Shown here in pieces: positions 1 through 18,582 of a stretch of DNA of 34,556 nucleotides. The stretch lies in UHGV virus genome UHGV-0341486; one strand, 5' to 3'. The first letter of the stretch is position 1. Each line of letters opens with the position of its first letter. This DNA is from a virus. Both the position numbers and the translations under genes were made by a program. The notes beneath the pieces are model-generated. The model did not search any database and was not told where the DNA came from. It was given only the letters and a program-made list of their open reading frames with translations.

Positions 1-98
1 ATTCGTCACCGATGTTTGCGCCAGGGGCGATACCGATACCACCAACCTGCGCTGCCAGGGCGTCAGAAATGTAGTCACCGTTCAGGTTCATACAGGCG
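1..98 (-). pseudogene. icd: Internal icd fragment in inverted orientation (minus strand encodes ...[34 protein letters not shown], the isocitrate/isopropylmalate dehydrogenase signature)
   Basis: Minus-strand translation of positions 1-104 gives the IDH signature motif; the orientation is opposite to the icd 3' end that follows at 104-175. Confidence 0.7.
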
Positions 99-103
99 AT
101 ATC

Positions 104-175
104 GAACGTCTGATGGAAGGCGCTAAACTGCTGAAATGTTCAGAGTTTGGTGACGCGATCATCAAGAATATGTAA
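104..175 (+). CDS. icd: 3'-terminal coding segment of icd (…[23 protein letters not shown], stop TAA at 173-175), probably the prophage-supplied replacement 3' end
   Basis: Plus-frame translation matches the Icd C-terminus; a terminator follows; not in the ORF track because there is no start codon in the window. Confidence 0.8.
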
Positions 176-198
176 TCACTACATGTGTTAAATATTGA

Positions 199-227
199 AA
201 CGGGCGTATAACACGCCCGTTGTTTTA
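199..227 (+). terminator. Rho-independent terminator after icd (9-bp stem AACGGGCGT / ACGCCCGTT, loop ATAAC, then GTTTTA)
   Basis: Perfect inverted repeat followed by a T-rich run immediately after the icd stop. Confidence 0.7.
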
Positions 228-242
228 TGATGATGTAAAATC

Positions 243-278
243 TTCCCCAAAACTTTCCCCAAAACCCTTCCCCAAAAC
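243..278 (+). repeat. Three tandem 11-bp direct repeats TTCCCCAAAAC (243-253, 255-265, 268-278); candidate arm-type integrase binding sites
   Basis: Exact triple repeat between the icd 3' end and the int stop codon, the position where lambda carries its P' arm sites. Confidence 0.55.
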
Positions 279-288
279 TGGCTATTTT

Positions 289-1431
289 CTATGCTGTTTT
301 GATATCTACGATAATCCAGTCTTTACCACGATCATCATTGTATCGGTCGGTCATTTTTCTGGATTTATGGCCTAACAACTTTTGCGTATCCAGACCCTGT
401 TCCCGATATAACCGTTCTGACAGAGATCGCTGCTCATGAAATGTGGGCGCAGTTCCTTGCTCCCATTTTATGCCACATTTTTCCCGGGCCTTTTTAAAAG
501 CCGTTGTCAGAGTATTTGCAGAAACCTGGTCTCCTCTGTTTGCTTGAGAGGTAGTGTGACGGTAATGGACCAGATATTTACTAACAACAGCATCCCTGCA
601 CTGAGATATAACTTCACGAAGGGTAATATTCAGAGCATCGCATTTCAGGTTAAGCGGAATAGCAAGTTTTGAACCGGTTTTTTCCTGAGTAATGTGCAAC
701 ATGTCGTCCCATATATCAGAGAATTTCAAATTGCAGATATCGCCTAAACGTTGTCCAGTAACAAGAGCAAGTAGCATGCCGCATTTTAAATAGGGCTGCC
801 GTCTGCTTACGCTGTCAAATATTGCCTGCCATTCGGGCAGTGACAATCTTTGGCGGTTTACTCGATTTCGCGGTTGTTTTGTTGCCTGCGCTGGGTTAAA
901 TCCTGGCGGAACATGTCCTGCGTGTTGTGCTTCTTTGAAGACGTCGATCAACACCATTCTCACGACTTGCGCCATCCTGTTATGACCTTCAGCCTTTACA
1001 GCATCAATTATTTCGGCAATATCAAGTGCGGTAATATCCTTGAGGTGTTGCATTCCACAATGCTCACGGAAAAGACGAATGGGTTTGCCTTTTTGCCGAT
1101 AGGAGTTGGGTCTTAGTTCATTATGTTGCAGCCTGTCCTCTTGGATAGAAATATATTTATCAAGCCATTCTGTCACCGTAATGTCTGAGCGCCTGCCTTT
1201 CATTCTTTCCAGACGCTCATTGACGCTTAATATTTGTCTGGTACGTTGTTCAGCAATAATGGTATTTGCTTCAGTAGCAACTTGTTTTGCTTCATTCTCA
1301 TCAGTTCCTAAGCTATGAAAACGACCGGATAGTGGATGTTTGTATTGCCAATATACCTTTCCGGTTCGCTTATCTAATTTGCAATATAAATTGGGTATAG
1401 AGATTTTGTGAGATCGGGGTCTAGCAGCCAT
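289..1431 (-). CDS. int: Phage integrase, tyrosine recombinase (380 aa)
   Basis: ORF with C-terminal catalytic region (…HKSRKMTDRY…); adjacent to the attachment region; 11-nt overlap with the upstream xis ORF. Confidence 0.92.
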   Translation of the reverse strand: MAARPRSHKISIPNLYCKLDKRTGKVYWQYKHPLSGRFHSLGTDENEAKQVATEANTIIAEQRTRQILSVNERLERMKGRRSDITVTEWLDKYISIQEDRLQHNELRPNSYRQKGKPIRLFREHCGMQHLKDITALDIAEIIDAVKAEGHNRMAQVVRMVLIDVFKEAQHAGHVPPGFNPAQATKQPRNRVNRQRLSLPEWQAIFDSVSRRQPYLKCGMLLALVTGQRLGDICNLKFSDIWDDMLHITQEKTGSKLAIPLNLKCDALNITLREVISQCRDAVVSKYLVHYRHTTSQANRGDQVSANTLTTAFKKAREKCGIKWEQGTAPTFHEQRSLSERLYREQGLDTQKLLGHKSRKMTDRYNDDRGKDWIIVDIKTA

Positions 1432-5942: not shown

Positions 5943-6632
5943 CTACCCATGCTTCCTATATGTCTGCGGCATGCTCCCAATAACCTTACCGAAGATGAAC
6001 ACCCGGTTCATCTCGTCTTTCTCGATCGGGTCCCACGGTGAGTAGCTTTTGTTATCAGAGATGACCAGCAGCTTATCCTTCATCATTTGCAGGCGCTTTA
6101 CATGGGCTGTGTCGTCGTACAGAAACGCATAGATACCATCACCGTCGAAAGATTTAACTGTGATATCAACGAACAGCAGATCACCTGGTTCGATCGTTCC
6201 TGACATGCTGTCACCACGCACGTTAATGATGCGGATATTTTCCGCCTTCCTACCATCGAACATGTGACGAGCATCGTCAAACGAGTACTCAACCGAGCGT
6301 AGAACTTCTACAAACTCACGGTTGATGACTCCCGGCCCAGCACTGACTTCTATATCAAGAACGTCAATCTTGAAGTATTTGGAATGGCTGACAGTTGATT
6401 GTATTGGTTGCACTGTACTGTCTGACATATTTCCAACGCCAGAAGATAACCATTCTGCGCGCACACCCAAAGCGTTCGCGATCTCCACGATTTTAGTTGT
6501 TTGATTAGCTTTCCCTGTTTCGATTTTCTGAATAGCAGCCTGGCTAACCCCGACCAAATCCCCAAGCGCCTTTTGTGTAAGGCCTCGCGCTAATCTGGCT
6601 TCTTTAAGTCTTTCTGAGAGTGTTGTTTTCAT
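5943..6632 (-). CDS. cI: Prophage repressor, CI-like: N-terminal XRE helix-turn-helix plus C-terminal S24 (LexA-like) autopeptidase domain; probable start MKTTLSERLKE, 229 aa
   Basis: HTH motif (…LTQKALGDLVGVSQAAIQKIETGK…), Ala-Gly cleavage site (VSAGPG), Ser (GDSMSG) and Lys (VKRL) catalytic dyad; divergent from the cro-like gene across an operator region. Confidence 0.88.
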   Translation of the reverse strand: MKTTLSERLKEARLARGLTQKALGDLVGVSQAAIQKIETGKANQTTKIVEIANALGVRAEWLSSGVGNMSDSTVQPIQSTVSHSKYFKIDVLDIEVSAGPGVINREFVEVLRSVEYSFDDARHMFDGRKAENIRIINVRGDSMSGTIEPGDLLFVDITVKSFDGDGIYAFLYDDTAHVKRLQMMKDKLLVISDNKSYSPWDPIEKDEMNRVFIFGKVIGSMPQTYRKHG

Positions 6633-6639
6633 AGTCCAA

Positions 6640-6736
6640 ATGTACAACCAAGGTTTTATTCCATCAAACGAAAATGGTTGTTGACTAAAAACAACCATAG
6701 TTTTAATCTTGATTCAAATTAACCACGGAGGTTGTT
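6640..6736 (+). promoter_or_regulatory. Rightward operator/promoter region (OR/PR-like): perfect 25-bp palindrome ATGGTTGTT-GACTAAA-AACAACCAT (6674-6698) overlapping -35 TTGACT (6681-6686); further GGTTGTT half-sites at about 6645-6650 and 6730-6736
   Basis: Inverted repeat with 9-bp arms read directly from the sequence, in the divergent cI/cro intergenic region. Confidence 0.7.
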
Positions 6737-18288: not shown

Positions 18289-18582
18289 TTATTGTGAGCA
18301 ATACACACGCGCTTCCAGCGGAGTATAAATGCCTAAAGTAATAAAACCGAGCAATCCATTTACGAATGTTTGCTGGGTTTCTGTTTTAACAACATTTTCT
18401 GCACCACCACAAATTTTTGCTGCATCGACAGTTTTCTTCTGCCCAATTCCCGAAACGAAGAAATGATGGGTGATGGTTTCCTTTGGTGTTACTGCTGTAG
18501 GTTTGTTTCCAACAGTAAACGTCTGTTGAGCACATCCTGTAATAAGCATTGCCAGAGCGGCAGAAAACAACATTTTTTTCAT
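18289..18582 (-). CDS. bor: Bor lipoprotein (serum-resistance outer-membrane lipoprotein), 97 aa from MKKMLFSAALAMLITGC…
   Basis: Near-identical to recalled lambda Bor; lipobox LITGC. Confidence 0.92.
   Translation of the reverse strand: MKKMLFSAALAMLITGCAQQTFTVGNKPTAVTPKETITHHFFVSGIGQKKTVDAAKICGGAENVVKTETQQTFVNGLLGFITLGIYTPLEARVYCSQ

What the first reader, a model, noticed from the sequence alone, without database searches (positions are those of the whole stretch)
1..104. Left window edge: icd internal fragment in inverted orientation, joined to the icd 3' end at a palindromic junction
The minus strand of positions 1-98 encodes the isocitrate dehydrogenase signature region (about codons 305-338), whereas the plus strand of 104-175 encodes the last 23 codons of icd. 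The junction is the palindrome CGATATCG (about 97-104). An intact attL should have icd codons reading continuously on the plus strand into the phage-supplied 3' end. The observed arrangement implies a local inversion or deletion, which would disrupt icd unless another copy exists, or a chimeric assembly. A comparable inverted fragment occurs at the opposite window edge in gene K.
Basis: seen in the sequence. Interest (0 to 1): 0.5.

Follow-up and report, generated by a model that had tools for sequence, protein, structure and literature searches.

The report
Chimeric contig ends, not icd inversion
The last ~100 bases at both ends of this window are nearby sequence attached backwards, most likely a sequencing or assembly artefact at the ends of a contig and not a real rearrangement of the isocitrate dehydrogenase gene.

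Summary
Window 1-101 is the exact reverse complement of internal icd sequence (codons 299-331). From 102 the window is colinear with icd codon 393 to the stop codon, followed by a phage-21-type integrase. 183 nt of icd are skipped.

The right edge mirrors this. Gene K runs forward to codon 58 (34454). Then 34452/5-34556 is the reverse complement of K codons 86-121, with 85 nt skipped.

Between the two blocks, 102-34454 matches ST131-type icd prophages at 99.97-100% identity. None of 5,426 complete E. coli genomes contains either junction, nor do the three contig collections scanned. All 16 public contigs fetched with the same integrase or the same autotransporter allele show normal icd.

Both joints are effectively blunt (0 and 3 nt overlap). 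There is no pre-existing inverted repeat at either site. The joint itself creates the palindrome CGATATCG, which happens by chance in about 3% of simulated joins.

Two mirror-image blocks of about 101 nt, each exactly terminal and each taken from 190-285 nt further on, on the opposite strand, have the geometry of an Illumina read pair or strand-split chimeric read used to extend a contig end.

Verdict: technical artefact, low interest. Raw reads were not available, so a real rearrangement is unlikely rather than excluded.

The parts
1..101 (-). Terminal inverted block. Exact reverse complement of host icd codons 299-331, the region reading [20 protein letters not shown]. It is displaced 183 nt from where the colinear part begins.
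   Evidence: 101/101 identity to L001 1817-1717. The same result was obtained in 14 of the 16 further loci; L010 showed 3 mismatches and L012 had no listed match. The region lies upstream of the 164-nt phage-borne icd fragment, so it is host-only DNA.
97..104 (.). CGATATCG, an 8-nt palindrome created by the blunt joint at 101|102. It is incidental.
   Evidence: it is absent from both parental sequences; 2.9% of simulated inverted joins give a palindrome of 8 nt or more; microhomology here is 0 nt.
102..175 (+). Phage-supplied 3' end of icd: part of codon 393, codons 394-416, and the stop codon at 173-175. Colinear with normal attL.
   Evidence: The matches in phage records also cover 102-600. 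The stretch lies inside the 95-nt exact attL/attR repeat of the reference.
199..221 (+). 9-bp stem, 5-nt loop hairpin (AACGGGCGT..ACGCCCGTT) downstream of the icd stop codon. Terminator-like and conserved at attR.
   Evidence: Its function is inferred, not tested.
237..279 (+). Three direct repeats with the core TTCCCCAAAAC, spaced 12-13 nt apart, between the icd terminator and the end of int. Possibly integrase arm-type sites.
   Evidence: The role is inferred from position only.
289..1431 (-). Phage-21-type tyrosine integrase (380 aa). Part of the genuine, colinear prophage.
   Evidence: Pfam Arm-DNA-bind_1 and Phage_integrase; phage 21 int/icd record AF017626.1, 99.2% identity.
34283..34454 (+). 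Genuine 5' part of tail gene K (C40 peptidase), codons 1-58. Colinear with the reference.
34452..34556 (-). Terminal inverted block at the right edge. Reverse complement of K codons 86-121, with 85 nt skipped and a 3-nt ambiguous overlap CAG at 34452-34454.
   Evidence: 105/105 identity to L002 2688-2584.

Best explanation
The window is most likely a whole short-read contig. Its real content is 102-34454: a phage-21-type lambdoid prophage integrated in icd of an ST131-like E. coli, running from the phage-supplied icd 3' end to codon 58 of tail gene K.

The outermost ~101 nt at each end are not part of the organism's genome arrangement. Each is a piece of the sequence that truly lies 85-183 nt further out, attached bluntly in reverse-complement orientation.

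This is the product expected when a contig end is extended by a chimeric read. The best-fitting variant is a read pair treated as one sequence: read 1 followed by read 2 in its raw orientation. That puts the start of the mate, from the far end of a ~290-385-bp insert and pointing back at the contig, directly against the 3' end of read 1, and adds about one read length.

Shown: the anatomy, the exact identities, the absence of the junctions elsewhere, and the blunt joints.
Inferred: that the window is a whole contig, and the read-level mechanism.
For: 1. Symmetry. Both window termini carry an exact inverted block of 101 nt (left) and 102-105 nt (right). Each was taken from within 190-285 nt beyond the breakpoint and faces the contig.
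2. The interior is ordinary. 102-34454 is colinear with strain 4/1-1 at 99.96-99.98% identity except for a 714-nt repeat-number difference. It is 100.000% identical over 22,990 nt to GCA_024391605.1.
3. The junctions are unique to this window. The best coverage of either 600-nt end query in 5,426 complete E. coli genomes is 83%, the colinear part only. The same holds in 50,697 phage records. There are zero exact matches to either junction in viral contigs, genome contigs or metagenome contigs.
4. Where the gene table reaches that far (10 loci), icd is called intact at 416 aa in normal orientation next to the same integrase. All 16 loci fetched with the same integrase or autotransporter allele align colinearly across the point where the window breaks, and 15 also hold the 101-nt block in normal orientation 184 nt upstream.
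5. The joints are blunt: 0-nt and 3-nt overlap, which is what random joins give (56% and 3.6%). The longest inverted repeat at the parental sites is 5 and 4 nt, against a null mean of 5. An annealing-driven or recombinase-driven event is therefore not indicated.
6. Geometry. With 101-nt reads the implied inserts are about 385 bp (L001 1717-2101) and about 290 bp (L002 2398-2688), and the two pieces are in forward-reverse orientation. This is arithmetic. That these are typical paired-end insert sizes is my own knowledge.
7. The left colinear end lies inside the 95-nt exact attL/attR repeat, a place where short-read contigs naturally stop.
Against: - No reads, coverage data or assembly metadata were available, so the artefact is inferred, not observed.
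- The two blocks are not identical in length: 101 versus at least 102 nt. A fixed 101-nt mate does not explain the right end exactly without a base error or a few extra bases from another read.
- A compacted de Bruijn graph should merge the inverted block with the true path and not stop after ~100 nt. The assembler behaviour that let these tips survive is therefore unexplained.
- In many ST131 genomes K is single-copy (2 places per record, which are the colinear and inverted pieces). The right contig break is therefore not obviously repeat-driven.
- I could not identify the source record.
Confidence: 0.87

Rival explanations
1. The artefact is physical, not informatic. Strand-split or inverted chimeric DNA fragments formed during library preparation or whole-genome amplification, by fold-back or template switching of a single-stranded 3' end onto the nearby opposite strand. 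Reads from such fragments then extended the contig ends. This is still an artefact; only the sub-mechanism differs from the best explanation.
For: Chimeric reads whose two parts map close together on opposite strands are a documented artefact class: SSARs (PMC6344851) and the PDSM model (PMC10908179). MDA chimeras are mostly inverted, with a preferred distance of 80-280 nt between segments (PMC5372508). The distances here are 284 and 187-190 nt.
Against: These mechanisms rely on annealing at short inverted repeats. More than 95% of MDA chimeras have a 3-13-nt overlap and only 0.4% have none. The SSAR and PDSM junctions sit at natural inverted repeats or palindromes. Here the left joint has 0 nt and the right 3 nt, and no inverted repeat above chance exists at the parental sites. 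It would also be a coincidence for two such rare fragments to end the same contig with blocks of nearly equal length.
Confidence: 0.3
2. Two genuine small inversions exist in this isolate: about 284 bp inside icd (codons 298-392) and about 190 bp inside K. The first would inactivate isocitrate dehydrogenase and the second the tail-tip protein.
For: The visible half of each junction is formally what one breakpoint of an inversion looks like. The inverted DNA is 100% identical to the local gene, so it comes from the same genome.
Against: - The sequence stops 101-105 nt after each joint. It does not continue through the rest of the inverted segment to the second breakpoint.
- Two independent events would each have to lie about 100 nt from a window edge.
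- Neither junction occurs in 5,426 complete genomes or in three contig collections.
- No inverted repeats or recombinase crossover sites lie at the breakpoints.
- Loss of icd causes glutamate auxotrophy (own knowledge), so it would be selected against.
Confidence: 0.04
3. The window is a real sub-genomic linear DNA species, for example a broken prophage replication product. Its two ends would have been healed by fold-back (snap-back) synthesis, giving inverted duplications at both termini.
For: Fold-back healing yields the order 'colinear - short overlap - reverse complement of sequence further out', as seen at both ends. The symmetry of the two ends would follow naturally.
Against: Fold-back priming needs terminal complementarity, and there is none at the left end (0 nt). 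The molecule would mix host icd DNA with a prophage truncated in K, with no known process cutting at these points. A minority species would not normally win in an assembly. Nothing similar exists in any collection searched.
Confidence: 0.03

Closest known systems
attL of phage-21 / e14-type lambdoid prophages integrated in icd
   Same: The colinear part has the known arrangement: a phage-supplied icd 3' end, a terminator, then a tyrosine integrase on the opposite strand. It is 99.2% identical to the phage 21 int/icd record AF017626.1 and 100% identical to ST131-type genomes. Free phage Perceval carries the same 164-nt icd 3' fragment.
   Different: In every reference the host icd 5' part runs continuously into this fragment. 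Here only 74 nt of it are present before the joint to an inverted internal icd piece.
Unsplit paired-end spots (read 1 followed by raw read 2) or mate-based contig extension in the wrong orientation
   Same: The two pieces face each other, lie one insert length apart (about 290-385 bp), are joined bluntly, and the added block is about one read length. That such concatenated spots occur in public read archives is my own knowledge and was not tested here.
   Different: The block lengths differ slightly (101 versus at least 102 nt). No read data were available to show that the joint coincides with a read boundary.
Strand-split artefact reads (SSARs), PDSM chimeras and MDA inverted chimeras
   Same: Two segments from opposite strands of the same locus a few hundred nt apart. 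The distances of 190-284 nt fall in or next to the 80-280-nt preference reported for MDA chimeras.
   Different: Those classes characteristically show junction overlap at pre-existing inverted repeats. Here the overlap is 0 and 3 nt and there is no such repeat.
Site-specific DNA inversion switches (for example Pin of e14, Hin, Gin)
   Same: A DNA segment in inverted orientation within or next to a prophage that integrates at icd.
   Different: There are no inverted crossover repeats at the breakpoints. The breakpoints lie inside coding sequence of icd and K. The arrangement is absent from all other genomes.

Membership tests
Intact icd::prophage attL (phage 21 / e14 type) | A tyrosine integrase gene lies immediately downstream of, and convergent with, the icd 3' end. 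| tested here: met
   int is at 289-1431 (-) and the icd stop codon at 173-175.
Intact icd::prophage attL (phage 21 / e14 type) | Host icd 5' sequence is continuous on the same strand with the ~164-nt phage-borne 3' fragment. | tested here: not met
   Only 74 nt of the fragment (102-175) are present, and upstream of them is inverted sequence. The feature is met in every comparator.
Genuine chromosomal inversion | Both breakpoints are present and the inverted segment is read through completely. | not testable with these tools
   The window ends 101-105 nt after each joint, and no reads or longer source sequence are available.
Genuine chromosomal inversion | The junction is recoverable in independent genomes or assemblies of related strains. 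| tested here: not met
   0 of 5,426 complete genomes. 0 hits in viral, genome and metagenome contig collections. 0 of 16 fetched contigs.
Site-specific invertase switch | Inverted-repeat crossover sites flank the invertible segment. | tested here: not met
   The longest inverted repeat at the parental breakpoints is 5 and 4 nt, against a null mean of 5 and a 95th percentile of 7.
Annealing-mediated strand-split or MDA inverted chimera | Two segments on opposite strands lie within a few hundred nt of each other. | tested here: met
   The distances are 284 nt (left) and 187-190 nt (right). Compare the 80-280-nt preference in PMC5372508.
Annealing-mediated strand-split or MDA inverted chimera | Junction overlap at a pre-existing reverse-complementary sequence (3-13 nt in more than 95% of cases). 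| tested here: not met
   Left 0 nt; right 3 nt, which is borderline. No inverted repeat above chance.
Read-pair concatenation or mis-oriented mate extension at a contig end | Forward-reverse geometry: the appended block starts at the far end of an insert-sized interval and points back to the contig. The joint is blunt. | tested here: met
   The implied inserts are about 385 and 290 bp for 101-nt reads.
Read-pair concatenation or mis-oriented mate extension at a contig end | The appended block equals the read length and is the same at both ends. | tested here: inconclusive
   The left block is exactly 101 nt and the right is 102-105 nt. The read length of the source run is unknown.
Read-pair concatenation or mis-oriented mate extension at a contig end | The joint coincides with the read 1/read 2 boundary in the raw data and has only minimal support. 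| not testable with these tools
   No access to reads or to the source accession.

The most novel reading that the evidence does not exclude
The two inverted termini are real. On this reading the window represents a discrete linear DNA species in the cells: host icd DNA plus a prophage truncated in K, with both broken ends healed by fold-back synthesis. Alternatively, the isolate carries two private micro-inversions, one of which knocks out icd.
Probability: 0.05. Interest if true: 0.45.

Novelty: not a real feature. Interest (0 to 1): 0.05.

Why it matters
If it were real, an inversion inside icd at a prophage attachment site would mean a lysogen without functional isocitrate dehydrogenase and an unusual rearrangement at attL. 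The evidence says it is a contig-end chimera, so its value is practical.

- Terminal blocks of about 100 nt in inverted orientation can mimic rearrangements, truncated genes or novel ORFs. Examples here are the chimeric 57-aa icd-like ORF and the chimeric K product.
- Such blocks should be trimmed or masked before att-site, prophage-boundary or gene-disruption calls are made.
- The symmetric signature at both ends is a simple diagnostic: an exact reverse complement of sequence 100-300 nt further out in a reference, joined bluntly.

Tried and rejected
1. Tracing the source contig.
- An exact look-up of the chimeric 57-aa ORF found nothing.
- Exact junction scans of viral contigs, genome contigs and metagenome contigs for both junctions found nothing.
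- Look-ups of the integrase and of the 1183-aa autotransporter returned only long contigs with normal icd.

2. The palindrome as a mechanistic clue, including the embedded EcoRV site GATATC. Rejected: neither parent contains it, the break is off-centre at 101|102, and its chance frequency is 2.9%.

3. Fold-back priming on an inverted repeat. Rejected for lack of complementarity.

4. One large inversion of the whole 34-kb segment. Rejected: that would place K sequence at the left edge and icd sequence at the right edge, the opposite of what is seen.

5. A free-phage (attP) origin for the left end. Rejected: the inverted block is host-only icd sequence, upstream of the 164-nt phage-borne fragment.

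6. Inferring the assembler's k from the position of the colinear end inside the 95-nt attL/attR repeat. This gives k of about 75-77 but is not conclusive, because the sample's own attR is unknown.

7. The Logan assembly paper, checked for a described artefact of this kind. It reports none.

8. Collapse of the autotransporter repeats as an assembly error. Not supported: the same 1183-aa allele occurs in complete genomes.

Full report
**1. Checking the observation**

Six-frame translation of the first 180 bases gives two readings. The minus strand reads ...[35 protein letters not shown], the conserved isocitrate dehydrogenase region. The plus strand reads ...[23 protein letters not shown], the C-terminus of Icd.

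I aligned the left edge with a complete genome that matches best, E. coli strain 4/1-1 (NZ_CP023844.1).
- Window 1-101 is the exact reverse complement of L001 1717-1817, which covers complete icd codons 299-331.
- Window 102-400 is exactly colinear with L001 2001-2299, from the second base of codon 393 through the stop codon (window 173-175) into the integrase gene.
- 183 nt of icd (L001 1818-2000) are absent.

The block is 1-101, not 1-98, and covers codons 299-331, not 305-338. The palindrome CGATATCG does sit at 97-104.

K (C40 peptidase) starts at 34283 and is colinear to codon 58 (34454). After that, 34452-34556 is the exact reverse complement of K codons 86-121 (L002 2688-2584), with 85 nt skipped and a 3-nt ambiguous overlap CAG.

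**2. What lies between the two blocks**

Window 102-34454 is an ordinary lambdoid prophage integrated in icd. Its gene order is int, xis, exo/bet/gam, repressor, O/P, an inverse autotransporter, nin region, Q, lysis, bor/iss, terminase, head and tail genes up to K.
- It is colinear with strain 4/1-1 at 99.96-99.98% identity. The only structural difference is 714 nt (two 357-nt repeat units) in the inverse autotransporter gene.
- It is 100.000% identical over 22,990 nt to GCA_024391605.1.
- The integrase and icd end match the phage 21 int/icd record AF017626.1 at 99.2% identity.
- Free phage Perceval carries the icd 3' fragment from L003 1911 to 2074, 164 nt.

Two conclusions follow. The window's colinear part starts 90 nt inside the phage-borne fragment. 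The inverted block (L003 1717-1817) is host-only DNA, so it came from a lysogen's attL region and not from a free phage genome.

**3. Is the junction found anywhere else?**

No.
- In 5,426 complete E. coli genomes the best coverage of the left 600-nt query is 83% (positions 102-600 only). The best coverage of the right 600-nt query is also 83% (1-498 only).
- The same limits apply in 50,697 phage records.
- Exact scans for 27-41-nt junction-spanning words found nothing in the viral, species-representative genome or metagenome contig collections, for either junction.
- The integrase occurs in more than 30,000 blocks of the assembly collection. All ten places returned show an intact 416-aa icd next to it.
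- The six places carrying exactly the same 1183-aa autotransporter allele also show icd in normal orientation beside int, cut only by the locus edge.
- All 16 loci align colinearly across the point where the window breaks, and 15 also hold the 101-nt block in normal orientation 184 nt upstream (L012 gave no listed match for the block).

**4. Anatomy of the joints**

The left joint is unambiguous at 101|102 with zero shared bases. The right joint has 3 shared bases.

I simulated 200,000 inverted joins of the same loci.
- 56% of joins have 0-nt microhomology and 3.6% have 3 nt.
- 2.9% have a palindrome of 8 nt or more spanning the joint.
- The longest inverted repeat between the two parental neighbourhoods is 5 nt (left) and 4 nt (right), against a null mean of 5.

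The palindrome is absent from both parents (GGCGATA|ACATC and ATGACT|TCGAACG) and is off-centre to the break. It is a by-product of the joint and not a cause. Nothing points to an annealing-based or recombinase-based event.

**5. Most likely explanation**

The decisive feature is the symmetry. Both extreme ends of the window carry an exact inverted block of about one hundred bases (101 and 102-105). Each comes from 190-285 nt further out, points back at the contig, and is joined bluntly.

A window cut at random from a genome with two real micro-inversions would not have both junctions about 100 nt from its edges. A real inversion would also be read through to its second breakpoint. The simplest reading is that the window is a complete short-read contig whose ends were each extended by one chimeric sequence.

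The geometry is that of an Illumina forward-reverse read pair.
- If read 1 ends at the colinear breakpoint and read 2 is appended in raw orientation, the block starts at the far end of the insert and adds one read length.
- With 101-nt reads the implied inserts are about 385 bp (left) and about 290 bp (right). This is arithmetic.
- That unsplit read 1 + read 2 spots and mis-oriented mate-based end extension occur in practice is my own knowledge.
- The left colinear end also lies inside the 95-nt exact attL/attR repeat of the reference, a natural stopping point for short-read contigs.

I put about 0.87 on 'technical artefact' overall. I put roughly 0.5 on the read-pair variant specifically.

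**6. Rival explanations**

(a) Physical strand-split or inverted chimeric fragments.
- The documented classes are SSARs (PMC6344851), PDSM (PMC10908179) and MDA chimeras (PMC5372508).
- The opposite-strand geometry fits, and so do the distances, given the reported MDA preference of 80-280 nt.
- These classes normally show overlap at pre-existing inverted repeats. More than 95% of MDA chimeras have 3-13 nt and only 0.4% have none. That fits poorly with 0 and 3 nt here.
- This rival is still an artefact.

(b) Two genuine micro-inversions. The visible half-junctions allow this formally. It requires the double edge coincidence, has no support in any other genome, has no repeats at the breakpoints, and would inactivate icd.

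(c) A real linear DNA with fold-back-healed ends. This explains the symmetry but lacks the terminal complementarity at the left end and has no known biological basis.

**7. Weak points**

- No reads, depth data or assembler metadata were available.
- The two block lengths are not identical.
- I cannot explain why a graph assembler kept ~100-nt inverted tips instead of merging them with the true path.
- K is single-copy in many related genomes, so the right break is not obviously repeat-driven.
- The source record could not be traced.

**8. Comparison with what is known, and verdict**

The genuine part is a known kind of element, a phage-21/e14-type prophage at icd in ST131-like E. coli. The feature flagged is not a biological feature. 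It fails the tests for a real inversion that could be applied, and it fails the test for a site-specific inversion switch. It matches the geometry of read-pair-derived or chimeric-read contig-end artefacts.

Interest is low. The practical lesson is to trim such termini before interpreting att sites, gene disruptions or edge ORFs.

Noticed in passing
window 34452-34556: The right window edge carries the mirror image of the left-edge anomaly. It is an exact reverse complement of K codons 86-121, joined after K codon 58 with 85 nt skipped. This creates a false chimeric K open reading frame that runs off the contig.
   Followed up: yes
window 9540-13091 (+): A prophage-borne inverse autotransporter (IAT_beta, Big_1 and Invasin_D3 repeats) of 1183 aa. 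The allele in strain 4/1-1 is 1421 aa. The difference is exactly 714 nt, two 357-nt tandem repeat units. The 1183-aa allele also occurs in complete genomes, so it is a real length variant and not an assembly collapse.
   Followed up: partly
window 237-279: Three direct repeats with the core TTCCCCAAAAC, spaced 12-13 nt apart, between the icd terminator and the 3' end of int. They are plausible integrase arm-type binding sites of the att region. This was not tested further.
   Followed up: no
window 199-221: A perfect 9-bp stem, 5-nt loop hairpin (AACGGGCGT ATAAC ACGCCCGTT) just after the phage-supplied icd stop codon. It is also conserved at the attR icd' remnant of the reference, so it is the likely icd terminator.
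   Followed up: partly
L003 1981-2075 versus L004 ~2031-2125 (reference strain 4/1-1): attL and attR share a 210-nt stretch at 95% identity with a 95-nt exact core. attR lies about 48 kb downstream, beyond the sitABCD operon, so the icd-flanked island is larger than the lambdoid prophage itself.
   Followed up: partly
window 5943-6698 (-) compared with L015 and L020: The window's ORF list has the S24-peptidase (CI-like) repressor at 251 aa. In other records of the same prophage the called product is either 229 or 251 aa. This looks like a difference in start-codon calling and not in sequence.
   Followed up: no
window ~18289-18582 (-) and 13128-14171 (-): The prophage carries cargo genes annotated in the reference as iss/bor (increased serum survival lipoprotein) and an alpha/beta hydrolase. 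In one related genome the hydrolase is interrupted by an IS66 element.
   Followed up: no
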